Virus record (IMG/VR): IMGVR_UViG_3300032668_000011
Span: 55,645-75,644 of that record
Reading direction: 5' to 3' (one strand)
Source of the DNA: an uncultured virus (IMG/VR IMGVR_UViG_3300032668_000011)
Taxonomy: Duplodnaviria > Heunggongvirae > Uroviricota > Caudoviricetes
Length of the DNA: 20,000 nt
Part shown: in pieces, positions 6,746 through 17,595 of the stretch
Layout of the letters: each line of letters opens with the position of its first letter
Position numbering within the stretch: position 1 is the stretch's first letter
The notes under the pieces: generated by a model
Database searches by the model: none
The model's input: the letters and a program-made list of their open reading frames with translations, nothing else
Told to the model about the DNA's origin: nothing
Program-made: the position numbers and the translations under genes

Positions 6746-7177
6746 TCACTTCTCAGGCGTTGACTTCGATGATTGTTGTGCGACGGGCGTAGCCACAGGC
6801 TGACGCTCGTGACGACTTTCCTTGATGAATTGGACCCTATTGTTGGGAGGAACAGGCGCGGAACATGCGTCTCCGACCGGCGCCTTACGTTGAGGTGGAG
6901 GTGGAGTGTCATCAGCATCGACGAAAATGCGCCTGCTAATCTGCGGTGCGAACATCGATGTTGCTTGCGTCAGTTCGCGCGTAAGCTTCTGAGCGTTTCC
7001 TTCACCTGCGTCAGCCACGATCTCTGACTGCTTAGCATACTGACTGTGCAATTGAGACTGTTGCACTGCAGGCGCAAGCGGCCTGCGAGCTGTCATGATC
7101 AGGCGGATTGATGTCGCAGTTGACAGCATCGCTAAGCTGCCAGCTGCGACATACGTGAAGAAATCCGATGGGATCAT
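6746..7177 (-). CDS. hypothetical protein with N-terminal hydrophobic/membrane segment
   Basis: 143 aa; FFTYVAAGSLAMLSTATSIRLIM followed by a Pro/Gln-rich tail; ATGA overlap with the sigma stop. Confidence 0.7.
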   Translation of the reverse strand: MIPSDFFTYVAAGSLAMLSTATSIRLIMTARRPLAPAVQQSQLHSQYAKQSEIVADAGEGNAQKLTRELTQATSMFAPQISRRIFVDADDTPPPPQRKAPVGDACSAPVPPNNRVQFIKESRHERQPVATPVAQQSSKSTPEK

Positions 7178-8010
7178 GTGAGCCCGGTGCCAGCCTCGAG
7201 GACCATGCGGGCTTCCTCCTCAGTGATCGGATACTCCGCTGAGTTCGTTGCGTCCTCTACGAGACCGAAACGAAGACGAAGGATCGCCGCTTCTTTCTGT
7301 GAGAGACCATTGAGCACCTGCTGCGTGATCTCCAGCAGTTGCTTCTCTGCAACGTTCGTGAAGGGATCGCAACCGGGACGTTCGTCCTCAACCTTATCCT
7401 CAATGGTGTCGCCGTCACCGCTCGAGGAGAGCGGTTGCTGCAGAGAGATCGTCCCGCGGCCAGAGTGCATCGTAGCCTTGACGACTGTCTCGCTTGCACC
7501 GACGATGCCCTGGAGTTCTTCCTGCGTGGGCTCACAACCCATTGTCTCGCGAAATTCCTCCGCTGCCTGCAACATCTTACGTTGCACTGCTGCTGCATGT
7601 GCCGGGAGACGAATGATGCGCTTTCGCTTCAGGATCGCCTGACCGATCGCCTGCTTGATCCACCACGTTGCGTATGTGGAGAACCTGAAGCCTTTCTCCC
7701 ACTTGAAGCGGTCGATCGACTTCATGAGGCCGATGTTGCCCTCCTGGATGATGTCCTCGATTGGGATGTTGTGTCCCTTGTACTGCTTCGCGATCGAGAC
7801 GACGAGACGGAGGTTGCACTCCGTCAACTTCGCTCGGATCTTCTTGGCTTCCGAAGTACGATCGATGACTTCGTTCTCCGCGTCACGAGTGCAGCCCGCA
7901 TCGTACTTCTTGAAGAGCTCTACCACCTCAGGGTGCTTGAGCTGTGGGAAGTTGTGAAGTGCGTCAAGGTACGACCTGACGATGTTGTGTTCTGTGTTAT
8001 CTGCGCGCAT
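7174..8010 (-). CDS. RNA polymerase sigma-70 factor, RpoD/SigA-like, lacking the region 4.2 HTH
   Basis: Region 1.2 VRSYLDAL; region 2 NLRLVVSIAKQY, DIIQEGNIGLMKSIDRF, FSTYATWWIKQAI, RIIRLP; region 3 ISLQQP; region 4.1 LSQKEAAILRLRFGL. Start at 8010 (TGATG overlap) or 8019. Confidence 0.92.
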   Translation of the reverse strand: MRADNTEHNIVRSYLDALHNFPQLKHPEVVELFKKYDAGCTRDAENEVIDRTSEAKKIRAKLTECNLRLVVSIAKQYKGHNIPIEDIIQEGNIGLMKSIDRFKWEKGFRFSTYATWWIKQAIGQAILKRKRIIRLPAHAAAVQRKMLQAAEEFRETMGCEPTQEELQGIVGASETVVKATMHSGRGTISLQQPLSSSGDGDTIEDKVEDERPGCDPFTNVAEKQLLEITQQVLNGLSQKEAAILRLRFGLVEDATNSAEYPITEEEARMVLEAGTGLT

Positions 8011-8399
8011 CAGCTCCACCTTGTGGGTCGTCCACCCGTTGCGGCGTACACGAACGCCATGTTGTCGAAGTCACCGGCGGGCAGGTGCCGCTCGTCGGAC
8101 TCGAATTCTACGCCCGCAGTCCGGACGAACTCTGCATGCGTCTCGCGCCTGACTCGCCTGACCTGCTGTTCACGTCTGACGTAGGCAATCTCCTCCTGCC
8201 ACACTCGAGGATCAGATCGACCGTTCGTTTCTGCACGGTCGAGCCCCTGCTCGAGGGCTCGCAGGTGGTCAATCATGTCCTCATCCGACATCGTCGCTAG
8301 CACATCGATGCTCACGACCTCAGGCGTGTTCACCGCGCTGTACGTGCGCTGCGTTGCGGTTTCAGTCGTCTCGTTGCGCTGCTTCCTATTCTTCTGCAC
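8010..8399 (-). CDS. hypothetical protein, translationally coupled to the sigma gene
   Basis: 129 aa, GTG start with GAGGA SD. Confidence 0.75.
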   Translation of the reverse strand: MQKNRKQRNETTETATQRTYSAVNTPEVVSIDVLATMSDEDMIDHLRALEQGLDRAETNGRSDPRVWQEEIAYVRREQQVRRVRRETHAEFVRTAGVEFESDERHLPAGDFDNMAFVYAATGGRPTRWS

Positions 8400-8741: not shown

Positions 8742-9080
8742 TCAGTTGAGGTCAGAACCAAACTTCTTCGTTGAGATTGTTTCGACGAGCTGCTTTGTCT
8801 CATCAGCGATGCGTGTCAACTCAGTGACGTACCGGGAACAACGCTCGAACGTTTCATCATCGAGTTTCACCTTTATGTCCTCGTAGTATTCAGTCTCCAG
8901 GACAAAATTCATGATCTCGACGTATACGATGGCCGCCATCTTCATGTGCTTGCACGCCTTCGCAAGATCGGGCTTGATGCCCAACGCTTCCTTCGAAAGG
9001 TTCAGCTGTTCATCTGCAACGTCAAGAGCCTTGTTGACAGTCTCGTTAAGCGTCAATGCGTCCATGGAGTACCCTATCAT
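8742..9080 (-). CDS. hypothetical protein
   Basis: ORF 8742..9134; start at 9080 gives an ATGA overlap with the upstream gene. Confidence 0.7.
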   Translation of the reverse strand: MIGYSMDALTLNETVNKALDVADEQLNLSKEALGIKPDLAKACKHMKMAAIVYVEIMNFVLETEYYEDIKVKLDDETFERCSRYVTELTRIADETKQLVETISTKKFGSDLN

Positions 9081-9460
9081 GGTTTGTACCCACGTTGCAC
9101 TGTCAGAGGAATGCCGCCGCACTTGATGGGACACAATGATTCATATATGCCCGTGCGATCTTTGATCACGTTCCAGACGCCTGATTGCGGTTCAAAACGC
9201 CAGACGACATCCGCACCGGACATGAGGCCTGCCGGCATCCTACCACCTCTCTCGAGCATCCTCATTATCGATGCGTCCTCAATCACAACGAGATGGATCT
9301 GTCCATCATCTGGGCTGACGTACGTGTAGCTTCGCGGGATCGTCAATGCATTGATTGTTGTGACCAGGTCGTCTACCTCATCGCTGTCAGTTGTTCTCCT
9401 GATCCTGCGATAACACTCAATGAGCATTCGCGACCTTTCACCCACGAGAGGGACGTCCAT
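9077..9460 (-). CDS. hypothetical protein
   Basis: ORF 9077..9496; ATG at 9460 lies 6 nt after a promoter -10 (leaderless). Confidence 0.7.
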   Translation of the reverse strand: MDVPLVGERSRMLIECYRRIRRTTDSDEVDDLVTTINALTIPRSYTYVSPDDGQIHLVVIEDASIMRMLERGGRMPAGLMSGADVVWRFEPQSGVWNVIKDRTGIYESLCPIKCGGIPLTVQRGYKP

Positions 9461-9466
9461 GAGAAC

Positions 9467-9496
9467 ATCATACCTCTCCAGAGAAGGGACTTGCAC
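9467..9496 (-). promoter_or_regulatory. putative phage promoter (leaderless)
   Basis: GTGCAA-N18-TATGAT, then 6 nt to ATG. Confidence 0.7.
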
Positions 9497-9510
9497 AACT
9501 TGCGTTCCGA
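9495..9510. repeat. left arm of a 16-bp perfect inverted repeat (partner 12825-12840)
   Basis: acaacttgcgttccga is the exact reverse complement of tcggaacgcaagttgt at 12825-12840. Confidence 0.9.
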
Positions 9511-9607
9511 CGAAGCGCGGGGAGAAGACGGACCAGCCGTAGTCTCCCAGGCACAGTTATCCGGTGCGCACCGGACACCCTTCCTTTTCAGGACGTGCTG
9601 TGGGATT

Positions 9608-9682
9608 TGGTTGAGGCAGTAGGACTTGCACCTACGTGATCAGGGTCAGAACCTGACATACTCGCTGCTGTATGATGCCTCA
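9608..9682 (-). tRNA. trnQ: tRNA-Gln(CTG), CCA encoded, atypical T-loop
   Basis: TGAGGCA/TGCCTCA acceptor, TCAGG-TT CTG AC-CCTGA, T arm GTAGG-TGCAAGT-CCTAC, ends ACCA. Confidence 0.85.
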
Positions 9683-9683
9683 G

Positions 9684-9756
9684 TTGAGGTGGAGGGATTC
9701 GAACCCCCGTATGTGGCTTCAAAGACCACGGTCCTGGGCCGCTGGACGACACCTCA
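9684..9756 (-). tRNA. trnQ: tRNA-Gln(TTG)
   Basis: TGAGGTG/CACCTCA, GTGGT-CT TTG AA-GCCAC, T-loop TTCGAAT. Confidence 0.92.
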
Positions 9757-9896
9757 ATGGTGATGCTTTTCTTTTATCGTGCTACACACTCTTGTGCTGG
9801 TTCGACGTCGATAATTTCACTGGGAGAGCATCAACTCGCAATGAAAACAGCTAACGTTATCCACACAAGACACTGCGTCGATTTGAGCGCAGTTAG

Positions 9897-9968
9897 CAGG
9901 GGCACTCGGACTCGAACCGAGGTGATCCGTTTTGGAGACGGACATCCTAGCCGGTAAATGATACCCCT
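9897..9968 (-). tRNA. trnW: tRNA-Trp(CCA)
   Basis: AGGGGTA/TGCCCCT with G73, TCCGT-CT CCA AA-ACGGA, T-loop TTCGAGT. Confidence 0.92.
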
Positions 9969-10070
9969 GTGAAACACGCATGTTCTGCCGATTGAGCTAC
10001 ATTCACGTTCCCTGCCACTGTCGAGGGATTGTGAAGACGACGTAGATAAACCGTAAAACATTGCGTGTAG

Positions 10071-10141
10071 CGGACACGACGGGATTCGAACCCGCATGCG
10101 TTCCCTAGACAGGGGAATGGCCTCCAGTGGCCCACGTATCC
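10071..10141 (-). tRNA. trnD: tRNA-Asp(GTC)
   Basis: GGATACG/CGTGTCC with G73, TTCCC-CT GTC TA-GGGAA (unusual U37), T-loop TTCGAAT. Confidence 0.88.
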
Positions 10142-10153
10142 ATTTCGTATCAG

Positions 10154-10284
10154 TGCCGACTCCTGGTGTTGAGCCAGGCCAATCCTCCTGTGACCGCTTC
10201 ACATCACTGATTCGCAATGATTCGAGATCTCGGTGTGAATGCCGGCTGATGTAGCCGGTGGGTTTCGTCGCTCCCTCAATCGGC
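10154..10284 (-). ncRNA. 131-nt tRNA-like RNA (nominal CAT anticodon) with a 63-nt variable region
   Basis: GCCGATT/AGTCGGC with A73, short D stem GGG/CCC, CCGGC-TA CAT CA-GCCGG, T arm CCTGG-CTCAACA-CCAGG. Confidence 0.6.
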
Positions 10285-10360
10285 GTAAGATGCTGCTGAC
10301 TCCCGGGAGGCGAACGCCTCCACTCGAGAGGCGTGAATTCGTCTCTCTAGGACTCAGCGG

Positions 10361-10433
10361 TGGAATTGAAGGGATTCGAACCCTCTACCTCCTGCATGCC
10401 GTGCAGGCGCTCTCCCAATTGAGCTACAATCCC
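10361..10433 (-). tRNA. trnA: tRNA-Ala(GGC)
   Basis: GGGATTG/CAATTCC with G3-U70 and A73; CCTGC-AC GGC AT-GCAGG. Confidence 0.92.
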
Positions 10434-10434
10434 G

Positions 10435-10511
10435 TGGACCCGGAGGGAGTCGAACCCTCAATCACGTAGGTTCCATTGTCGGCTTTCCTATGTGACTCGC
10501 CTTTCAGGCCC
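10435..10511 (-). ncRNA. 77-nt Ala-type tRNA-like RNA resembling the tmRNA tRNA-like domain (no D stem, no mRNA domain)
   Basis: GGGCCTG/CGGGTCC (G3-U70, A73), unpaired AAAGGCGAG, long helix TCACATAGG/CCTACGTGA, T arm GAGGG-TTCGACT-CCCTC. Confidence 0.65.
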
Positions 10512-10555
10512 TTTTACGCCGAGTGAAACACAACCGCACTGTGCCATGGCGTTAG

Positions 10556-10628
10556 TGGAACTCACGGGATTCGAACCCGTCGCCTCCTGCGTGCAAAGCA
10601 GGCGCTCTCCCAAATGAGCTAGAGTCCC
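10556..10628 (-). tRNA. trnA: tRNA-Ala(TGC)
   Basis: GGGACTC/GAGTTCC with G3-U70; CCTGC-TT TGC AC-GCAGG. Confidence 0.93.
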
Positions 10629-10653
10629 AAAAGAGGCAGATTGACCGCTGCCT
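10629..10653 (-). terminator. hairpin with short U run after the kinase gene (weak terminator or processing hairpin)
   Basis: AGGCAG-CGGTCAAT-CTGCCT followed by CTTTT, abutting the 5' end of tRNA-Ala(TGC). Confidence 0.35.
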
Positions 10654-10663
10654 TCCTGGTATC

Positions 10664-11419
10664 TTACTGTAAGCCTGCCTGTTGCGTGATCGTCTGAATC
10701 GCCGCTGTTCCCCTGACATTGGACATCCCAAGGTCGATGAGTACAAGCGTGCCGTCGTCTCTTTTCATCATGTTGCCGGCATGGTAGTCGTGAAAGTCAA
10801 TGCCAAGTTCCGTGAGAGTCTCGAACAATCCCTTCACACCGTACTTCTTGACTAGGAGGCTCCACTGTTCGTTTGCGTGTGCGATGAACTTCTGCGCTTC
10901 AGGTGAGGTGAAAGACTTGAACTTCTTCTTTGCAGTTTCCTTGATGTGTTCCTTCGTGAGTTCCTTGACCTTGTCCCAGGAGCCTCCTGCACGTTTGACC
11001 CAAAGCGGAAATGCTGTCGTCACAAGTGCGTCATTAAACGATTTGCCTTCTTCTGCGCTGATAGTTTGCAACTTTTCTTGCAGGATCGCGAATGTACCCG
11101 TGTCGCCTAGGCTCCATACGCCGTAAAAATTCACAACTCCGCTGACGTTCTTTCCCACGAGGATTGATGCTGCGTGCGCTTCTTTGCCGTCGTTCGTGAC
11201 CTTGAGAACCTTGTCGCCTACCTCGAAAACTGTACCCCGCGTGCCCGTACCGATCGGTTGTAATGAATCAACGTCCTTGATTCCTAGTTTCGCCGCACCT
11301 TTCGGAAAGCGTTTGAGAAGTTCTTTCGCCTCATCGGGCGTCACGGGCTTGTTTTCCTTCGCCTCGAAAATGAGTGCCTCACGCACGAGTCGACGAAGAC
11401 GTCCTAGCTTGATTCTCAT
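10664..11419 (-). CDS. protein-kinase-like (Ser/Thr or APH-fold) enzyme inside the tRNA array
   Basis: Gly loop IGTGTRGTVF, VLK lysine, catalytic HDYHAGNMM, LIDLG; N-terminal MRIKLGRLRRLVREAL motif. Confidence 0.85.
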   Translation of the reverse strand: MRIKLGRLRRLVREALIFEAKENKPVTPDEAKELLKRFPKGAAKLGIKDVDSLQPIGTGTRGTVFEVGDKVLKVTNDGKEAHAASILVGKNVSGVVNFYGVWSLGDTGTFAILQEKLQTISAEEGKSFNDALVTTAFPLWVKRAGGSWDKVKELTKEHIKETAKKKFKSFTSPEAQKFIAHANEQWSLLVKKYGVKGLFETLTELGIDFHDYHAGNMMKRDDGTLVLIDLGMSNVRGTAAIQTITQQAGLQ

Positions 11420-11440
11420 TGCTGTAAGTATGCCCTTCTT

Positions 11441-11517
11441 TGGAAGCGGAGGTCGGATTTGAACCGACGACTTCGAGGTTATGGGCCTCGCGAGCTACCT
11501 GGCTGCTCTACTCCGCA
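11441..11517 (-). tRNA. trnM: initiator-type tRNA-fMet(CAT), CCA encoded
   Basis: U1:U72 mismatch, D arm GAGC-AGCCAGGTA-GCTC typical of initiators, CGAGG-CC CAT AA-CCTCG; atypical C33 and U73. Confidence 0.85.
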
Positions 11518-11518
11518 G

Positions 11519-11591
11519 TGAATCCAGAGGGAGTTGAACCCTCAACCCTCGGGGTAAAAGCCCGCTGCGCTGCCAATTGCGCCATGGATTC
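11519..11591 (-). tRNA. trnK: tRNA-Lys(TTT)
   Basis: GAATCCA/TGGATTC with A73, GCGGG-CT TTT AC-CCCGA, T-loop TTCAACT. Confidence 0.88.
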
Positions 11592-11592
11592 A

Positions 11593-11970
11593 TTATCGAT
11601 ATTTGCCGGCATATTTCTTCATAGTCTTAGCGCGTTTACTGTTCACCACTTTACCGATATTGCGACCACGATATGTTGATGTTTGCGCATGGCAATTTGG
11701 ACAGATGAGTCTGAGATTTTCTTTTGCTTGGTTCTCAGGATTCCCATCAATGTGATCAATTTCGATTGGGATGGGTCTATTCAACCAAATTGACGTGTTA
11801 CACACTTCACATTTGTGTCCTCTTTCTTCAAGAAGACATCTTTTCTTAATACGGATGTCGTCTGTTCCTTCGAACGTCTTGCGATATTTCTCAGGAAAGT
11901 GTGCTCGTCGATGACCACCCAACGCCCCGGGAGTTTCAAACTCCTGTAAACATGTCTTACACACATACAT
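11593..11970 (-). CDS. HNH homing endonuclease with N-terminal C2H2 zinc finger
   Basis: YVCKTC...ALGGHRRAH; CEVC...EIDHIDGNPENQAKENLRLICPNCH; AT-richer than its flanks and inserted between tRNAs. Confidence 0.88.
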   Translation of the reverse strand: MYVCKTCLQEFETPGALGGHRRAHFPEKYRKTFEGTDDIRIKKRCLLEERGHKCEVCNTSIWLNRPIPIEIDHIDGNPENQAKENLRLICPNCHAQTSTYRGRNIGKVVNSKRAKTMKKYAGKYR

Positions 11971-11993
11971 GCTAGATAGTACCCCACCCGTTG

Positions 11994-12063
11994 AGCCCAA
12001 GGTTGGAGTTGAACCAGCGACCTCCCAGTGGATACCGGGCGCTCTGCACTGAGCTACGTGGGC
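11994..12063 (-). tRNA. non-canonical tRNA (Thr-like body, 6-nt anticodon loop TATCCA)
   Basis: GCCCACG/CTTGGGC with U73, D loop AGTGCA lacking GG, CCCGG-TATCCA-CTGGG, T-loop TTCAACT. Confidence 0.65.
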
Positions 12064-12065
12064 AG

Positions 12066-12139
12066 TTGCAAAGGAAGGGCTTTAACCTCCGACCTCCGGG
12101 CCATTACGCCCGGCGCTCTCTCTCCTGAGCTACTTCGCA
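12066..12139 (-). tRNA. non-canonical tRNA (8-nt anticodon loop CGTAATGG)
   Basis: TGCGAAG/CTTTGCA, D loop AGGAGAGA, CCGGG-CGTAATGG-CCCGG, T-loop TTAAAGC. Confidence 0.65.
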
Positions 12140-12140
12140 G

Positions 12141-12213
12141 TGGGAAGGGAACGGATTGAACGTCCGACCTGCGGGCTAAATGCCCGCTGCTCTTTCTCCT
12201 GAGCTACCTCCCC
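12141..12213 (-). tRNA. non-canonical tRNA, nominal TTT (Lys-like) with A33
   Basis: GGGGAGG/CCTTCCC with A73, D loop AGGAGAAA, GCGGG-CA TTT AG-CCCGC, T-loop TTCAATC. Confidence 0.65.
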
Positions 12214-12291
12214 ATAATCATCGATGATTTCACCTCCGCCGGCAGCTTCAAAGGCTGACAGTGTCGCTTGCGCTGGTTACTTGATCGACTG

Positions 12292-12366
12292 TGCCTCCGG
12301 TGGGATTCGAACCCGCAACTTTCGGTGTAAGAGACCGCTACTCTAATCCAGTTGAGTTACGAAGGC
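12292..12366 (-). tRNA. trnK: tRNA-Lys(CTT)
   Basis: GCCTTCG/CGGAGGC with A73, GCGGT-CT CTT AC-ACCGA, T-loop TTCGAAT. Confidence 0.9.
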
Positions 12367-12369
12367 ATT

Positions 12370-12480
12370 GCGAGCGTTTTTGTCGTGGGGCGCTCGCCCA
12401 CGGGTGAATTCCGCTGTGAGTTTGTTGGGTTCACCATTCCCGGTGCTCACATGCTAATGACGCTGGATGGGCCCGCGATT
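12370..12480 (-). ncRNA. candidate tandem-pseudoknot RNA between tRNAs
   Basis: TGTGAG/CTCACA interlocked with GGTGAA/TTCACC, then H-type CGTGGG-CGAGCG-C-CCCACG-ACAAAAA-CGCTCG. Confidence 0.45.
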
Positions 12481-12500
12481 GCAGACACTACCAACGTCGG

Positions 12501-12573
12501 CTGCTCATATGGGAATCGAACCCATCGTCTTCCGCTTAACAGGCGGCCGCTGCACCAAGCCAGCTAATGAGCA
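12501..12573 (-). tRNA. trnN: tRNA-Asn(GTT)
   Basis: TGCTCAT/ATGAGCA with G73, GCCGC-CT GTT AA-GCGGA, T-loop TTCGATT. Confidence 0.9.
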
Positions 12574-12650
12574 ATGAAAGTTTTTGGCAGGACCTCAGAT
12601 CAAACGCTCAGATGAATACCACCCATGTTGCGATTCATCCTCAGTCCCTG

Positions 12651-12723
12651 CTGGCACAGTAGGTTTCGAACCTACATCCTCTCGGTTAACAGCCGAGCGC
12701 ACTGCCAATTGTGCTACATGCCA
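12651..12723 (-). tRNA. trnN: tRNA-Asn(GTT)
   Basis: TGGCATG/TGTGCCA with G73, CTCGG-CT GTT AA-CCGAG, T-loop TTCGAAA. Confidence 0.92.
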
Positions 12724-12752
12724 ATGAGCCGATACGCTTTCTTGTATCGGTG

Positions 12753-12821
12753 CCCCCGGGGATGGGTTCGGGCCATCGTCTCCGCCACAAAGAGGCGGGC
12801 TCTGCACTGAGCTACCCAGGG
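12753..12821 (-). tRNA. non-canonical tRNA, nominal TTT, aberrant D and T loops
   Basis: CCCTGGG/CCCGGGG, D loop AGTGCA, CCGCC-TC TTT GT-GGCGG, T arm GATGG-CCCGAAC-CCATC. Confidence 0.6.
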
Positions 12822-12824
12822 ATA

Positions 12825-12840
12825 TCGGAACGCAAGTTGT
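12825..12840. repeat. right arm of the 16-bp perfect inverted repeat (partner 9495-9510)
   Basis: tcggaacgcaagttgt, exact reverse complement of 9495-9510. Confidence 0.9.
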
Positions 12841-12870
12841 CAATGAACGTGAAGGACTATGCCTTCGCGG

Positions 12871-12951
12871 TGCAGGGGGCCGGATTCGAACCGACACAGT
12901 ACTAAACGGGTGGTTTACAGCCACTTGAGCTCGCCGATGCTCAGCCCCTAC
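12871..12951 (-). tRNA. trnY: tRNA-Tyr(GTA)
   Basis: GTAGGGG/CCCCTGC with A73, AGTGG-CT GTA AA-CCACC, 13-nt variable region, T-loop TTCGAAT. Confidence 0.9.
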
Positions 12952-12961
12952 ATGTGTGTTT

Positions 12962-12999
12962 AAACGAAAAAACCGAGAGAAGATCCTTTCTTCCTCGGC
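12962..12999 (-). terminator. intrinsic terminator (attenuator) directly upstream of the tRNA array
   Basis: GCCGAG-GAAGA-AAGGA-TCTTC-T-CTCGGT followed by TTTTTCGTTT, 10 nt before tRNA-Tyr. Confidence 0.8.
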
Positions 13000-13061
13000 G
13001 TCGAATTGGCTTCTATTCCCAACTCATTCGCTCCGGAAGCTCGGAGCGAGAGTGCGCTCCG
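12990..13061 (-). promoter_or_regulatory. alternative-hairpin (antiterminator/anti-antiterminator) region
   Basis: TCGCTCCG (13042-49) can pair with CGGAGCG (13055-61) or with CGGAGCGA (13028-35). When freed, CTTCC..GCG..GAGTTGG pairs with CCAATTC..CGC..GGAAG, which includes the terminator 5' arm. Confidence 0.65.
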
Positions 13062-13062
13062 T

Positions 13063-13134
13063 TCACGTATCCGTATTTGCGGCGGCATACTGCCACTGCT
13101 TTTGCTGATCCTTGTTATATGTTGAAGTTTTCAT
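13063..13134 (-). CDS. putative attenuator leader peptide MKTSTYNKDQQKQWQYAAANTDT (23 aa)
   Basis: ATG AAA ACT TCA ACA TAT AAC AAG GAT CAG CAA AAG CAG TGG CAG TAT GCC GCC GCA AAT ACG GAT ACG TGA, located between a promoter and the terminator; codons match the downstream tRNA set. No SD visible. Confidence 0.7.
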   Translation of the reverse strand: MKTSTYNKDQQKQWQYAAANTDT

Positions 13135-13162
13135 GACCGTGTGGTGCGTGTTGCTTACTAGT

Positions 13163-13192
13163 ACTCTATCCAAGACCTGTGCTTTGTTTCAC
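13163..13192 (-). promoter_or_regulatory. putative promoter of the leader/tRNA operon
   Basis: GTGAAA-N18-TAGAGT, preceded by an A-rich UP-like tract. Confidence 0.55.
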
Positions 13193-13208
13193 AGTTTTTT
13201 CAATTTTG

Positions 13209-13282
13209 TCGGTACGAGTGGAATTGAACCACCGACCTCCTGCTTATCAGGCAGGCGCTCTAGACCCCTGAGCTACGTACCG
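13209..13282 (-). tRNA. trnI: tRNA-Ile(GAT)
   Basis: CGGTACG/CGTACCG with A73, CCTGC-CT GAT AA-GCAGG, T-loop TTCAATT. Confidence 0.92.
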
Positions 13283-13299
13283 CTGCACTAACAAGAGTA

Positions 13300-13329
13300 A
13301 CTATACTGCTGTAGCCCACTCACGTACAC
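13300..13329 (-). promoter_or_regulatory. putative promoter of tRNA-Ile
   Basis: GTGTAC-N18-TATAGT. Confidence 0.55.
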
Positions 13330-13390
13330 TTTTGTTTTGCACTGTGACGTTGGTGGTTCGCGTGTATGTTACATAGTGATCAGACAACCG

Positions 13391-14665
13391 ATGAATGCGC
13401 CCGCGATCCACGTGCACACCGTGTCAGACCGTTCGACCGTCAAGTACGTACAGTTCATGTGGGATACGATGCGTAACCTGGCGACTCGCCCTGACGATCT
13501 TAGGTTGACTGTGCATTGCCTAGGAAACATCGTCAACGCGTTCGGTGAACTGAAGAACGGACGCTGCGTCATCGTCAACATCAACAAGGACAATGAAACA
13601 GGATCGAACGCGCATGCCGCCGGCGTTGCTGACGCGATCAGGCAAACAAACGACGGCGCGATTCACATCATAGCCGACTCTGACACCGTCGTTGTCGTGA
13701 AAGGTTGGGACGACTACGTCAGGTGTAAGCTCATCGATGAAAAGATCGGGATTGTCGGCGTGACGTATGAGGACGTCGGCGGCTTCAGCTCGGGCGACAA
13801 GAGAACGCAAACGTACAAAGGCATACCGAACGTCGTCTGGTGCGCACTATCGCCTAGGCACAGTTGGTCAGGATTGTCCGTGATGCCTGCGAAGCACAAG
13901 ACTTTCCAGATCAGCAATGATCGTATGTCAAAGATCTACAACCTACCAATCGGGTACGACCTGTTGCGCGATGTTGCATGGCAGATCCCGCAGTACCTTG
14001 CCGACAACAACATCACGTACGTCGGCTGGAAACACCTGAAGGGATCACGCGGTGGGAAGGTCCTTGCGAAGGACATCAGCGATTACAGTGAAGAATTTCA
14101 TGTCGATGATGGAATCCCGTTCGTCGTCCACCAGCGCGGAAGCCTCAGGAACGGCTACCGTGACAATGGAGTCTCCAAGAACTTTTACGATCGCGTGGAT
14201 GCGCACCTGAACGTTGAAAGTGCTGCGCCACCGAGATGGACGTGGAATGGAATGTACGAGGTCGTCACGCCATCGCCTGCGATTGTGTCGGTCGATCCGA
14301 TCATACCTGACGATCCCACTGCGTCGTCGGGGGACGGTGGCAATTGCCCAGCGGGCGAATGGATCAAGGCAACATTTGATGGGACTATCGTGTGGCCCAA
14401 GCAAAGGACGCCGGCCCCTAAGACGCTTGACGTCAAGTTCTTACCCGATCATGGGATCAAGAGCCTGAGGCTCGAAGGGACGACGAAAGATCTGTTCGTT
14501 GCAGTCCCTCCGCTGAACGGGTACGCTCACGCGATGACGATCAGGAACATGACAGCGGGCGTCGTGACTGTCAAAACGTCAGAAGGCGATCGCACCGTCG
14601 CAGTGCCCAAGGACGCGTGTTGGATGTTGCTCGTTGATATTGACGGCGTCGTGCACGTTACGTAG
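13391..14665 (+). CDS. putative GT-A fold glycosyltransferase with a C-terminal beta-rich domain
   Basis: The only long plus-strand ORF; HIIADSDTVVV (DxD) after SNAHAAGV; Pro-rich linker; start ATG 13391 (ORF open from 13337). Confidence 0.6.
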   Translation: MNAPAIHVHTVSDRSTVKYVQFMWDTMRNLATRPDDLRLTVHCLGNIVNAFGELKNGRCVIVNINKDNETGSNAHAAGVADAIRQTNDGAIHIIADSDTVVVVKGWDDYVRCKLIDEKIGIVGVTYEDVGGFSSGDKRTQTYKGIPNVVWCALSPRHSWSGLSVMPAKHKTFQISNDRMSKIYNLPIGYDLLRDVAWQIPQYLADNNITYVGWKHLKGSRGGKVLAKDISDYSEEFHVDDGIPFVVHQRGSLRNGYRDNGVSKNFYDRVDAHLNVESAAPPRWTWNGMYEVVTPSPAIVSVDPIIPDDPTASSGDGGNCPAGEWIKATFDGTIVWPKQRTPAPKTLDVKFLPDHGIKSLRLEGTTKDLFVAVPPLNGYAHAMTIRNMTAGVVTVKTSEGDRTVAVPKDACWMLLVDIDGVVHVT

Positions 14666-16710: not shown

Positions 16711-17595
16711 TTACAAGGATTGTTCACTTGCATCATCAGAGTTTTCTTCTCCCTCTTCTCCTTCGACGCCCTCGCCTTCTTCGCCTTCTTCCCCATCGCC
16801 CGATCCTACATCACTTGCCGGCGCCTTTGCACTTGGCCCCAACATCGTTGATGTATCGCCTCCACCAGAGAGTTGCCAAATTTCGGGCGCTCTGCGAGAT
16901 GCATTTCCTTCCTCACCGTTTACCGCAGGATGCGACGTTGAATCCCTGCGATCGGGTGGGTGAAAGCCCAAGCGTGACGCAGGATCCTCAGTGCGGAACG
17001 GATCGCCTGCCGTCCCCTTCTGTTGCCCGGGCGACTTGTACCACGTAGCGGACAAGTCGTCAGTGCCCGTGTGATCCTTGACAGGGTCATAATTCGTGTA
17101 GAAACCCTTCGGGTCCTTCGTGGGATCCACCATGCCCGCTCCGGCAGGGTATTCCTGAAGCATGTATCGTTTGATCTCACGGTTGAGCATCGTTGCTTCC
17201 TGGACGTCCTTCATCACCTCGTTGTCAGGCGGGTCGCCCAGAGACAATTTTTCATCGTCACCACGCAAGTGGGCGGAGATCCTGAAGTCATCGCTGTCTG
17301 GGTCATTGCGATCCTTCTCTCCATTGCCGAGGTTATCGCCTATGTTGAAGCCGTCAGTCTCACCGAGAGGTTCTCCCAACCTGGACGCTTCGTCGTCATC
17401 GAGGGGCTCTCCCTCGGTCGGATTCCACCTACCGGGAACCCATGCCTCTTCATCGATCGCAGCACTGTCCGGTAACTCTGATGGAAGATGACCCGGAGTC
17501 TGTGCATCATCGTCGCTGCGCGCTGAACTGCTGTTTGCACGAGCAACAAGTTCCTCATTGATGAGCCTGCGTAGGTCGCCTAGTCTGATCTTCAC
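16711..17595 (-). CDS. acidic low-complexity protein, probable virion/head protein
   Basis: 294 aa D/E/G/P-rich; N-terminal MKIRLGDLRRLINEEL motif shared with the kinase. Confidence 0.7.
   Translation of the reverse strand: MKIRLGDLRRLINEELVARANSSSARSDDDAQTPGHLPSELPDSAAIDEEAWVPGRWNPTEGEPLDDDEASRLGEPLGETDGFNIGDNLGNGEKDRNDPDSDDFRISAHLRGDDEKLSLGDPPDNEVMKDVQEATMLNREIKRYMLQEYPAGAGMVDPTKDPKGFYTNYDPVKDHTGTDDLSATWYKSPGQQKGTAGDPFRTEDPASRLGFHPPDRRDSTSHPAVNGEEGNASRRAPEIWQLSGGGDTSTMLGPSAKAPASDVGSGDGEEGEEGEGVEGEEGEENSDDASEQSL

What the first reader, a model, noticed from the sequence alone, without database searches (positions are those of the whole stretch)
12962..13192. Leader-peptide attenuator whose codons inventory the downstream phage tRNA operon (candidate tRNA-depletion sensor)
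Seen: promoter, then a 23-codon ORF MKTSTYNKDQQKQWQYAAANTDT, then mutually exclusive hairpins, an intrinsic terminator and the tRNA array. The canonical tRNAs downstream are Tyr-GTA, Asn-GTT x2, Lys-CTT, Lys-TTT, fMet, Ala-TGC, Ala-GGC, Asp-GTC, Trp-CCA, Gln-TTG and Gln-CTG. Each of these 11 anticodons has a cognate codon in the leader (TAT, AAC/AAT, AAG, AAA, ATG, GCA, GCC, GAT, TGG, CAA, CAG). 18 of 23 codons match, including an unbroken run of 15 (YNKDQQKQWQYAAAN); at roughly 1/4 per codon that is about 1e-9 under uniform usage, higher given the A-rich composition. The exceptions are Thr x4 and Ser x1, and a Thr-bodied aberrant tRNA is in the array. tRNA-Ile lies upstream of the leader, and Ile is absent from the peptide. 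The folding logic fits: a ribosome at the stop covers CGGAGCG (13055-61), so 13042-49 pairs with 13028-35 and the terminator forms. A ribosome stalled earlier lets 13055-61 pair with 13042-49, freeing CTTCC-GGA-GCG to invade the terminator 5' arm. Established: trp/his/pheST-type attenuation; anti-phage tRNA nucleases such as PrrC and PARIS AriB cut tRNA-Lys. Inference: a multi-input sensor that releases replacement tRNAs when host tRNAs are cleaved or uncharged. I am not aware of a described leader-peptide attenuator on a phage tRNA array. Caveats: no SD is visible, and the hairpin at 10629-10653 could interrupt the transcript.
Basis: partly seen in the sequence, partly recalled or inferred. 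Interest (0 to 1): 0.95.

Follow-up and report, generated by a model that had tools for sequence, protein, structure and literature searches.

The report
Codon-matched leader gating phage tRNA genes
A tiny reading frame at the head of a lake phage's block of tRNA genes is spelled in the codons those tRNAs read and is joined to a switchable RNA stop signal, so the phage probably makes these tRNAs mainly when ribosomes decode those codons slowly.

Summary
A 23-codon ATG frame (13134-13063) lies between tRNA-Ile and tRNA-Tyr, at the head of a 16-gene tRNA array. It is followed by alternative hairpins and a hairpin with a U6 run.

It is conserved. Of the 20 related jumbo-phage loci that show the array head, 18 carry an 18-26-codon frame at this place. 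Its stop codon abuts the first stem. Four competing helices (A:B, B:C, C:D, D:E) are each supported by matched complementarity.

The pooled peptides are 77% Gln/Ala/Lys/Asn/Tyr/Asp/Trp, the amino acids of the array. Rarer codons (Val, Arg, Ile, Glu) track the tRNAs present in each locus (P about 1e-4).

Outside the window, the same genome has a second leader ahead of its second array. It is spelled in that array's codons (Ser/Leu/Arg/Thr/Gly/Pro), and the cross-table gives P=4e-9.

Best reading: a multivalent leader-peptide attenuator that gauges tRNA supply.

Not shown: translation, RNA ends, or termination in relatives, most of which lack a clean U run. The trigger by anti-phage tRNases is untested.

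No published account was found. This scan has noted the same kind of element in other phages.

The parts
13296..13305 (-). -10-like motif (TATAGTTACT) 13 nt upstream of tRNA-Ile; candidate promoter of the unit
   Evidence: Read. The same TAGTTACT / AGTACT motif sits 3-8 nt upstream of several start codons of the record. That it acts as a promoter is inferred, not shown.
13208..13282 (-). tRNA-Ile(GAT), first gene of the unit, upstream of the leader
   Evidence: ARAGORN; Rfam tRNA 70.3 bits. The order Ile(GAT), spacer, Tyr(GTA) is conserved in relatives.
13160..13169 (-). second -10-like motif (ATAGAGTACT) inside a 73-nt spacer between tRNA-Ile and the ATG; possible extra promoter
   Evidence: No sigma-70 consensus site is called here. 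Long spacers of 58-77 nt occur in 5 of 17 loci; the other 12 have 11-33 nt.
13063..13134 (-). leader ORF: ATG, 22 further sense codons, TGA
   Evidence: An ORF of 18-26 codons stands at this place in 18 of 20 related loci that show the array head. Frame 0 is open in 17 of 17; frames +1 and +2 hold stops in 15 and 12 of 17.
13079..13099 (-). hairpin H0 inside the ORF, with the invariant Trp codon (13095-13093) in its 5' arm; possible polymerase pause hairpin
   Evidence: Fold. Matched arms -12.2 against permuted -10.5 +/- 0.46 kcal/mol, 0 of 5000 permutations. Absent in L088 and L017. The pause role is inferred.
13055..13061 (-). segment A (CGGAGCG), starting 1 nt after the stop codon
   Evidence: The stem starts within -2 to +2 nt of the stop codon in 15 of 16 loci.
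13042..13048 (-). segment B (CGCTCCG); pairs with A or with C
   Evidence: A:B matched -11.0 against permuted -8.0 +/- 0.52 kcal/mol, 0 of 5000. B:C: 97.2% of cells paired, 7 of 9 pairs with changes on both sides, 0 of 500 shuffles. RNAalifold predicts exactly this helix.
13029..13041 (-). linker with the near-invariant CUUCC (13041-13036) and segment C (13035-13029); pairs with B or with D
   Evidence: TCCG is invariant in 16 of 16. C:D matched -13.9 against permuted -11.4 +/- 0.53 kcal/mol, 0 of 5000.
13003..13025 (-). small hairpin H3 with a purine-rich GAAG loop, enclosed by C:D in the read-through fold
   Evidence: Folds. Stems differ in sequence between loci but keep pairing (read). No formal count was made.
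12989..13000 (-). segment D: partner of the linker and C (antiterminator), and also the 5' arm of the terminator hairpin
   Evidence: Snapshot fold with A free: A:B plus CUUCC:GGAAG plus GCG:CGC, -31.9 kcal/mol. With A masked: B:C and D unpaired, -23.0 kcal/mol.
12967..12998 (-). terminator: 10-bp stem with one bulge (12998-12973), then T6 (12972-12967), 15 nt before tRNA-Tyr
   Evidence: Hairpin -14.1 kcal/mol, 6 U in the first 8 nt after the stem. The simple scan did not call it, because the stem is bulged.
9608..12951 (-). the gated array: 16 tRNA(-like) genes from Tyr-GTA to Gln-CTG, with two protein genes inside (HNH 12000-11593; a 251-aa protein 11419-10664)

Best explanation
This is a multivalent leader-peptide attenuator that gates a block of phage tRNA genes.

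Transcription starts upstream of tRNA-Ile. In this phage it may also start at a second -10-like motif.

The 23-codon leader is translated while the RNA is being made. Hairpin H0, inside the ORF, may pause the polymerase until a ribosome arrives.

If the ribosome runs quickly through the Lys, Gln, Trp, Tyr, Ala, Asn and Asp codons to the UGA, it covers segment A. B then pairs with C, D stays free and pairs with E, and the hairpin plus U6 stops transcription 15 nt before tRNA-Tyr.

If the ribosome lags at any of those codons, or does not come at all, A pairs with B. The linker CUUCC and C then pair with D as an antiterminator, and the polymerase reads into the 16 tRNA genes. The new tRNAs speed up leader translation and close the loop.

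Shown here by sequence and comparison: the ORF, its conservation, the four competing helices, the position of the stop codon, the codon-to-array match and its co-variation, and a second matched leader on the second array.

Inferred: translation, pausing, the direction of the switch, and termination as the output.
For: 1. The ORF is conserved although its sequence drifts.
- 13 of 13 viral-contig loci with the Ile(GAT)-to-Tyr(GTA) order carry it, as do 4 of 4 metagenome loci and L232.
- Lengths are 18-26 codons. Frame 0 is open in 17 of 17, while frames +1 and +2 hold stops in 15 and 12 of 17.

2. The stop codon lies -2 to +2 nt from stem A in 15 of 16 loci.

3. The competing helices are supported.
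- B:C: 97.2% of cells paired, 7 of 9 pairs with changes on both sides, 0 of 500 shuffles. RNAalifold finds the same helix on its own.
- A:B: matched -11.0 against permuted -8.0 kcal/mol, 0 of 5000.
- C:D: matched -13.9 against permuted -11.4 kcal/mol, 0 of 5000.

4. Snapshot folds of the window give A:B plus C:D when A is free, and B:C with D free when the first 14 nt are masked. The full length then adds the hairpin plus U6.

5. Composition.
- Pooled over 17 leaders, 292 of 381 residues after the initiator are in the 8-amino-acid set of the array.
- Glu is seen once where 15-20 are expected, Gly twice (18-36 expected) and Leu three times (23-27 expected).

6. Co-variation.
- Of 89 codons outside the core set, 23 are cognate to a tRNA of their own array. 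Permuting arrays among loci gives 11.0 +/- 2.7, and 0 of 20000 permutations reach 23.
- With 18 loci: 25 against 13.0. With one locus per cluster (12 loci): 16 against 6.3 +/- 2.3, P=1e-4.
- The only array with a tRNA-Glu (L096) has the only leader with Glu.

7. Internal control in the same genome.
- A 40-codon ORF at G000:C1:48639-48517 (-), between tRNA-Glu and tRNA-Pro, heads the second array. It is conserved in G004, G002 and G003.
- Cross-table of codons read by one array only: G000 [[17,5],[1,33]], Fisher P=4e-9; G004 [[21,3],[2,32]], P=1.3e-10.

8. The covariance model finds one strong copy in each of 6 records, three of which are 91-100% complete.

9. Missing Shine-Dalgarno sequences are the rule in this phage, so their absence here is not an objection.
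Against: - No evidence of translation or of an RNA 3' end.
- Only the window's phage has a clean U run after the hairpin (6 U in the first 8 nt). L011 has 4, L088 has 3, and L014, L012, L109, L019 and L006 have 1-2 (11 loci examined before the script stopped). L096 has a terminator of its own kind.
- L022 and L023 show no strong hairpin. L026 and L089 show none in the folds. So termination may not be the output across the family.
- At full length the minimum-energy fold always holds B:C plus the terminator hairpin (-38.7 against about -32 kcal/mol for the read-through fold). Read-through therefore needs a kinetic trap.
- There are no tandem runs of one regulatory codon, unlike trp or his.
- Thr makes up 33 of 398 residues, yet only L006 has a tRNA-Thr in its array.
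- Some arrays lack tRNAs for frequent leader codons: L023 has no Lys or Ala tRNA, L018 no Asn, L010 no Ala.
- The K-Q-W-Q core is kept even where H0 is lost (L088, L017). This could mean a peptide-specific role.
- The loci are related, so the permutation P values are not fully independent.
- Two loci that show the array head lack this leader. L021 has none. L007 has a different 37-codon ORF.
Confidence: 0.65

Rival explanations
1. A structured, untranslated RNA, for instance a processing or stability element for the tRNA precursor or a small RNA. On this view the open frame is a by-product of conserved RNA sequence.
For: - Helices H0, B:C, H3 and the linker motif are conserved as RNA.
- Most relatives have no clean terminator, and a purine-rich GGAAG tract lies just upstream of the first gated tRNA in both leader regions. 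This would suit a processing signal.
- No Shine-Dalgarno sequence is present.
Against: - The 5' half of the ORF has no conserved structure and little sequence identity, yet it stays open, starts with ATG and keeps its peculiar composition in 18 loci.
- Length changes keep the frame, for example the shorter 19-codon L088.
- The stop codon keeps its place next to stem A.
- Codon content tracks the array's tRNAs, and a second, unrelated ORF does the same for the other array. A purely structural RNA predicts none of this.
Confidence: 0.1
2. A nascent-peptide arrest leader of the TnaC/SecM/Erm kind. The conserved K-Q-W-Q motif inside the exit tunnel stalls the ribosome in response to a small molecule or a factor, rather than in response to tRNA supply.
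For: - Trp is the only invariant codon.
- It lies 9-12 codons before the stop in 16 of 17 leaders (read).
- The motif is kept in L088 and L017, which lack hairpin H0.
Against: - Residues near the C terminus, where arrest peptides are most constrained, vary. The last residue is T, V, R, P, F, I, Q, A or L.
- The composition rule, its co-variation with the arrays and the second leader, which has no Trp motif, are not predicted by this view.
Confidence: 0.1
3. An ordinary small protein gene with its own terminator, placed by chance at the head of the array.
For: Small ORFs and mobile genes (HNH, NUMOD3) are scattered through these arrays.
Against: - Peptide sequence is poorly conserved apart from 4 residues, while composition and position are conserved.
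- The stop codon abuts a switchable helix set.
- There is no Pfam-size domain.
- Only 1 of 209 short ORFs of the record has such a composition.
Confidence: 0.05

Closest known systems
Multivalent leader-peptide attenuators of enterobacterial amino-acid operons (thr leader: Thr and Ile codons; ilvGMEDA leader: Ile, Val and Leu codons); recalled knowledge, no paper read here
   Same: A short translated leader. Regulatory codons for more than one amino acid. Competing helices arranged 1:2, 2:3, 3:4. The ribosome's position decides between antiterminator and terminator.
   Different: The gated genes are tRNAs, not enzymes. Seven or eight amino acids are listed, without tandem runs. There are five segments rather than four, so the fold without a ribosome is read-through rather than termination. 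It belongs to a phage. No Rfam leader family matches.
pheST (pheM) attenuator of E. coli; recalled knowledge
   Same: Leader-peptide attenuation of a gene of the translation apparatus, in response to the supply of a charged tRNA.
   Different: One amino acid (Phe). The gated gene is a synthetase, not the tRNAs themselves.
trp and his leaders (trpL, hisL); recalled knowledge
   Same: The stop codon lies close to the first stem. A hairpin in or near the ORF could pause the polymerase. An intrinsic terminator with a U run (in this window).
   Different: Those leaders have runs of one codon. Without translation they default to termination. Here B:C is stronger than A:B (-15.4 against -11.0 kcal/mol) and the default is read-through.
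T-box riboswitches; recalled knowledge
   Same: A cis-acting RNA that reports on tRNA status and switches a terminator.
   Different: A T-box binds the uncharged tRNA directly and needs no translation. No T-box match in Rfam at E up to 1.
TnaC-type arrest leader; recalled knowledge
   Same: A conserved Trp about 10 residues before a UGA stop.
   Different: No conserved C-terminal Pro. No evidence for a Rho site. Composition rather than sequence is conserved.

Membership tests
Leader-peptide (ribosome-mediated) transcription attenuator | A short ORF directly upstream of the regulated genes, conserved among relatives | tested here: met
   18 of 20 related loci that show the array head. Frame 0 open in 17 of 17.
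Leader-peptide (ribosome-mediated) transcription attenuator | The leader is enriched in codons whose decoding reports on the regulated function | tested here: met
   18 of 23 codons here. 292 of 381 pooled. Co-variation P about 1e-4. Second leader matched to the second array. There are no tandem runs of one codon.
Leader-peptide (ribosome-mediated) transcription attenuator | Mutually exclusive helices, one of which is the terminator stem | tested here: met
   A:B, B:C and C:D are supported by matched complementarity. D is the terminator's 5' arm in the window.
Leader-peptide (ribosome-mediated) transcription attenuator | The stop codon is placed so that a terminating ribosome occludes the first segment | tested here: met
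   -2 to +2 nt in 15 of 16 loci.
Leader-peptide (ribosome-mediated) transcription attenuator | An intrinsic terminator (stem plus U run) before the first regulated gene | tested here: inconclusive
   Met in the window (U6) and in L096. In relatives the strong hairpins have only 1-4 U in the next 8 nt, and four loci have no strong hairpin.
Leader-peptide (ribosome-mediated) transcription attenuator | The leader is translated, and read-through responds to the supply of charged tRNA | not testable with these tools
   No experiment could be run here.
Rfam leader families (Trp, His, Thr, Leu leaders and the like) and T-box | A match to the curated covariance model | tested here: not met
   cmscan of 9000-14000 at E up to 1 gave only tRNA hits above gathering score and nothing at 12960-13200.
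tmRNA | A tRNA-like domain plus a tag ORF without a start codon | tested here: not met
   ARAGORN with tmRNA search finds none. The ORF starts with ATG.
TnaC-like arrest peptide | Conserved Trp, conserved residues at the C terminus, a Rho-dependent output | tested here: inconclusive
   Trp is invariant and 9-12 codons from the stop in 16 of 17. The C-terminal residue is not conserved. Rho dependence cannot be tested here.

The most novel reading that the evidence does not exclude
These jumbo phages split their roughly 50 tRNA genes into two blocks that are gated separately. Each block sits behind a promoter, one ungated tRNA and a 'checklist' ORF. The second leader uses five different Leu codons, three Pro codons and three Thr codons, each cognate to a different isoacceptor of its block. 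The ribosome thus acts as a direct gauge of the pool of usable tRNAs, and the tRNAs themselves are the product that closes the loop. The same circuit would switch the blocks on when host tRNAs are cut by anticodon nucleases or lost in host shut-off. That would make it a sensor coupled to a counter-defence.
Probability: 0.35. Interest if true: 0.92.

Novelty: new variant of a known kind. Interest (0 to 1): 0.86.

Why it matters
Phage tRNA genes are usually treated as constitutively expressed helpers for codon usage, or as replacements for tRNAs that defence nucleases cut. One example is PARIS AriB, which cuts tRNA-Lys, tRNA-Thr and tRNA-Asn (abstract of PMC12409363).

A leader that reads the very codons served by the downstream tRNAs would be feedback control of tRNA supply by the ribosome. 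I found no published account of that logic for tRNA genes.

It gives a simple and testable rule: leader codons equal array anticodons. It suggests a way to find further cases by computation. It offers a compact multi-input sensor of decoding speed for synthetic biology.

It may also explain why the tRNA genes of large phages are sorted into isotype blocks.

Tried and rejected
- Cultured phages: blastn of the region hit only tRNA-Ile genes. tblastn with the neighbouring 442-aa ORF found nothing. The AAA protein had hits of at most 30.5% identity. So there is no close isolate.
- A degenerate pattern for the peptide core found only the same phage.
- A looser DNA pattern gave 66 viral stretches. 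Of the 65 searched with the covariance model, 7 matched, and 2 of those were new.
- Sigma-70 promoter scan: nothing between tRNA-Ile and the ORF. The simple terminator scan missed the bulged hairpin.
- RNA evidence: no RNA holder listed.
- Contigs of four lake or biocathode DNA runs laid on 12850-13350 showed no differing letters, so there is no population variation to read.
- Anchor error: anchored on the first TCCG after the stop. In six loci that lies inside segment B. The C:D test was redone with alignment-based anchors. The folds printed remain valid as folds.
- One search stopped with an error after 11 of 17 loci.
- In one search I first passed over the 40-codon ORF between tRNA-Glu and tRNA-Pro. 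I recognised it only.
- Full-length minimum-energy folds with ribosome masks did not show loss of the terminator hairpin. Only truncated, co-transcriptional snapshots do.
- Literature: five full-text searches found no account of leader-peptide control of tRNA genes in phages or bacteria. I saw only listings and abstracts. Subscription journals and old phage T5 papers are not in the library.
- An overlapping ORF starting at the ATG inside TATGCC occurs in 12 of 17 loci. I take it as a by-product of the conserved Tyr-Ala codons.
Full report
WHAT IS THERE

The finding lies on the minus strand. Reading 5' to 3' on that strand, the order is as follows.
- A -10-like motif at 13305-13296.
- tRNA-Ile(GAT) at 13282-13208.
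- A 73-nt spacer with a second -10-like motif at 13169-13160.
- An ATG at 13134, 22 further sense codons, and TGA at 13065-13063.
- Segment A (13061-13055), a 6-nt loop, and segment B (13048-13042).
- A linker with CUUCC (13041-13036) and segment C (13035-13029), which repeats A.
- A small hairpin H3 (13025-13003).
- A 10-bp bulged hairpin (12998-12973) followed by T6 (12972-12967).
- After 15 more nt, tRNA-Tyr (12951-12869) and 15 more tRNA(-like) genes down to 9608.

Rfam confirms 16 of the 17 tRNA calls. It reports no other family in 9000-14000 at E up to 1, apart from weak sub-threshold hits on tRNA sequences.

The window is the last 20 kb of a 75.6-kb virus record (about 20% complete) with 51 tRNA(-like) genes in two minus-strand arrays. 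The same phage is a 145-kb IMG/VR contig. No close cultured phage exists in the collection searched.

Neighbouring genes:
- ATP-dependent DNA ligase;
- AAA_5 ATPase;
- a sigma-70-family factor;
- HNH and NUMOD3 endonucleases;
- two sugar-modifying enzymes.

IS IT MORE THAN CHANCE IN THIS ONE SEQUENCE?

Eighteen of 23 codons are cognate to a downstream tRNA, with a run of 15. With the proteome composition of the record, 32.8% of residues fall in the eight amino acids of the array, and the binomial P for 17 or more of 22 is 2.4e-5. With the ORF's own A-rich base composition it is 1.3e-4.

Among 209 ATG ORFs of 18-26 codons in all six frames of the record, this is the only one at or above 0.7.

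The weight of the case lies in comparison.

RELATIVES

The sigma factor 5 kb downstream served as a handle.
- It brought 80 of 133 viral loci and 80 of 587 metagenome loci.
- A protein inside the array brought 4 more relatives.
- A DNA pattern followed by the covariance model added L232, and L213, which has the same peptide as L014.

Twenty distinct loci show the head of the homologous array.
- In 18 of them an ATG ORF of 18-26 codons stands between tRNA-Ile(GAT) and the next tRNA.
- L021 has only a promoter-like motif in front of tRNA-Tyr.
- L007 has a different, 37-codon ORF.

The hosts of these loci are jumbo phages. The covariance model built from 16 loci finds one strong copy (E of 1e-16 to 4e-25) in each of six records of 76-369 kb, three of them 91-100% complete.

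Mean column identity of the region is 49%. The 5' half of the ORF is poorly alignable, yet frame 0 is open in 17 of 17, while frames +1 and +2 contain stops in 15 and 12 of 17.

The only invariant codon is TGG. It is usually set in Lys-Gln/Arg-Trp-Gln and lies 9-12 codons before the stop in 16 of 17 leaders.

THE RNA SWITCH

B:C is the best-supported helix.
- 97.2% of 144 cells are paired.
- 7 of 9 pairs show changes on both sides.
- 0 of 500 shuffles reach the observed covariation.
- Slid registers fall to 31-46% paired.
- RNAalifold predicts exactly this helix.

For helices that MAFFT does not align in register, I compared duplex energies of matched arms with arms permuted among loci (16 loci; L096 is too divergent and was left out).

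| Helix | Matched (kcal/mol) | Permuted (kcal/mol) | Permutations reaching matched |
|---|---|---|---|
| A:B | -11.0 | -8.0 +/- 0.5 | 0 of 5000 |
| B:C | -15.4 | -8.9 +/- 0.8 | 0 of 5000 |
| H0 (inside the ORF) | -12.2 | -10.5 +/- 0.5 | 0 of 5000 |
| Linker plus C with D | -13.9 | -11.4 +/- 0.5 | 0 of 5000 |

It corrects an anchoring error.

The C:D helix has a constant part (CUUCC with GGAAG) and a variable part that changes in step between loci (listed).

Stem A begins -2 to +2 nt from the stop codon in 15 of 16 loci.

L096 builds the same logic from unrelated sequence and ends in a classic stem plus U run.

Folding truncated transcripts of the window gives the following.
- With A free: A:B plus C:D, enclosing H3 (-31.9 kcal/mol).
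- With the first 14 nt masked, as by a ribosome at the stop: B:C, with D unpaired (-23.0 kcal/mol).
- At full length: D joins E in the terminator hairpin (-38.7 kcal/mol).

The layout has five segments. A fast ribosome therefore causes termination. A late or absent ribosome allows read-through. Because B:C is stronger than A:B, the read-through state must be a kinetic trap.

THE CODON INVENTORY

Pooled over 17 leaders (398 residues) the counts are Gln 72, Ala 54, Lys 51, Asn 49, Thr 33, Tyr 25, Asp 23, Trp 18, Met 17, Val 12, Ile 12, Arg 10, Ser 6, Phe 6, Pro 4, Leu 3, Gly 2, Glu 1, His 0 and Cys 0.

Against both the base composition of the ORFs and the phage proteome, the amino acids of the array are enriched 1.2- to 6-fold. 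Glu, Gly, Leu, Ser, Pro and His are strongly depleted. Thr is at expectation.

The arrays differ between loci in their minor members, and the leaders follow.
- Of 89 codons outside the core set, 23 are cognate to a tRNA of the same locus. Permuting arrays among loci gives 11.0 +/- 2.7, and 0 of 20000 permutations reach 23.
- With 18 loci the figures are 25 against 13.0 (P=5e-5).
- With one locus per cluster of at least 75% ORF identity (12 loci) they are 16 against 6.3 +/- 2.3 (P=1e-4).
- All four arrays with Arg-GCG have CGT or CGC in the leader.
- Six of nine arrays with Val-GAC have a Val codon, against two of eight without.
- The one array with a tRNA-Glu has the one leader with Glu.

There are misses.
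- L023 has no Lys or Ala tRNA but 5 Lys and 2 Ala codons.
- L018 has no Asn tRNA.
- L010 has no Ala tRNA.
- Thr codons are unserved except in L006.

A SECOND LEADER IN THE SAME GENOME

Earlier notes of this scan describe codon-matched leaders before each tRNA block in other phages. They sent me back to the gaps listed.

Between tRNA-Glu(CTC) and tRNA-Pro(TGG), at the head of the second array, lies a 40-codon ATG ORF (G000:C1:48639-48517, minus strand, 7 kb outside the window). It is rich in Ser, Leu, Arg, Thr, Gly, Pro, Val and Cys. It uses five different Leu codons, three Pro codons and three Thr codons, each cognate to a different isoacceptor of that array.

Homologues of 37-38 codons stand at the same place in G004, G002 and G003.

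Codons after the ATG that are cognate to each array:

| Genome | Leader | Codons after ATG | Array 1 | Array 2 | Neither |
|---|---|---|---|---|---|
| G000 | 1 | 22 | 17 | 5 | 0 |
| G000 | 2 | 39 | 3 | 35 | 3 |
| G004 | 1 | 24 | 21 | 3 | 0 |
| G004 | 2 | 36 | 4 | 34 | 0 |

- Fisher's test on codons read by one array only gives P=4e-9 for G000 ([[17,5],[1,33]]) and P=1.3e-10 for G004 ([[21,3],[2,32]]).
- Two unrelated ORFs in one genome, each spelled in the codons of its own block, form an internal control that composition or RNA structure alone does not explain.

The second leader region has conserved hairpins around its stop codon but no U run before tRNA-Pro.

WEAK POINTS

- Nothing shows translation or an RNA end.
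- Shine-Dalgarno sequences are missing here, but they are weak or missing before most genes of the record. A TAGTTACT-type motif often lies 3-8 nt before start codons, which suggests short or no 5' leaders.
- In 12 of 17 loci only 11-33 nt separate tRNA-Ile from the ATG. The leader is therefore normally co-transcribed with tRNA-Ile. A promoter of its own is at most an extra in this phage and four others.
- The output step is the least certain. Only the window's phage (U6), and L096 with its own terminator, have canonical terminators.
- Seven further hairpins of -16.5 to -21.2 kcal/mol are followed by 1-4 U in 8 nt. L004, L022 and L023 have weak or no hairpins (11 loci before the script stopped). 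L026 and L089 show none.
- In those phages, and for the second leader, the switch may act on something other than intrinsic termination, for instance precursor processing. That is speculation.

WHAT IT IS CLOSEST TO, AND NOVELTY

In mechanism it is a leader-peptide attenuator, nearest to the multivalent thr and ilvGMEDA leaders and to pheST (recalled knowledge).

It differs in several ways.
- The gated genes are tRNAs.
- It has seven to eight inputs without tandem codons.
- The default state is read-through.
- It sits behind an ungated first tRNA.
- It occurs in a phage.

It matches no Rfam leader or T-box model.

Five full-text searches found no account of such control of tRNA genes. I saw listings and abstracts only, and subscription journals are not covered.

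The link to tRNA-cutting defences rests on background only. [quoted passage not shown] Nothing here tests that link.

This scan has recorded the same kind of element on other phage DNA. Those are unchecked AI notes. I used them as a lead, not as evidence.

VERDICT

- The interpretation as a codon-matched leader-peptide attenuator is supported by comparative evidence.
- Confidence that it is a translation-coupled gate on the tRNA block is about 0.65.
- The trigger by defence nucleases is open.

Noticed in passing
G000:C1:48517-48639 (-), outside the window; homologues in L242:14905-15110 (G004), L261, L262: A second leader-like ORF of 37-40 codons lies between tRNA-Glu(CTC) and tRNA-Pro(TGG), at the head of the second tRNA array. 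It is spelled almost wholly in codons read by that array. There are conserved hairpins around its stop codon but no U run.
   Followed up: yes
window 11993-12063 (-) and 12065-12139 (-): Two tRNA-like genes have 6-nt anticodon loops (ARAGORN: ?(Asp|Gly)(tc) and ?(Leu|Ile)(aa)). Relatives carry similar odd tRNAs with 6- or 8-nt loops at the same place. They also carry suppressor-like tRNAs: anticodon TTA in G000 and L004, CTA in L019, TCA in L232.
   Followed up: partly
window 13296-13305 (-); genome-wide: A TAGTTACT / AGTACT motif lies 3-8 nt upstream of several start codons and 13 nt upstream of tRNA-Ile. A related TGTATACT lies before tRNA-Glu. This may be a phage-specific -10 element giving leaderless or near-leaderless transcripts. 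The phage encodes its own sigma factor (7174-8019).
   Followed up: partly
window 10664-11419 (-), 16711-17595 (-); genome gap Phe-to-Cys: Three proteins encoded in or near the tRNA arrays share an N-terminal motif of the form (K/R)I(K/R/S)L..LRRL(I/V).E. The 251-aa one has a weak ABC1 kinase-like hit (E=6e-4, below Pfam's cut-off).
   Followed up: no
window 13086-12960 (-) and the same place in 11 other loci: An overlapping ORF in another frame starts at the ATG inside the conserved TATGCC (Tyr-Ala codons). It is 20-52 codons long and present in 12 of 17 loci. It is probably a by-product of the conserved RNA sequence.
   Followed up: partly
window 13177-13194 (+): A hairpin followed by a T run, read on the plus strand, lies just after the 3' end of tRNA-Ile. 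L017 has a similar insert. It may be a terminator for antisense transcription or part of an inserted promoter cassette.
   Followed up: no
window 10629-10653 (-): A 5-bp hairpin followed by TCTTTT lies between the 251-aa gene and tRNA-Ala(TGC).
   Followed up: partly
L018:5151-5552: In one relative a 133-codon HNH-type endonuclease gene is inserted between the attenuator and tRNA-Tyr. HNH and NUMOD3 genes also lie in and near the window's array.
   Followed up: no
window 13337-14665 (+): A 442-codon ORF divergent from tRNA-Ile has no Pfam family. It has no relative in the phage or viral collections except in the same phage.
   Followed up: partly
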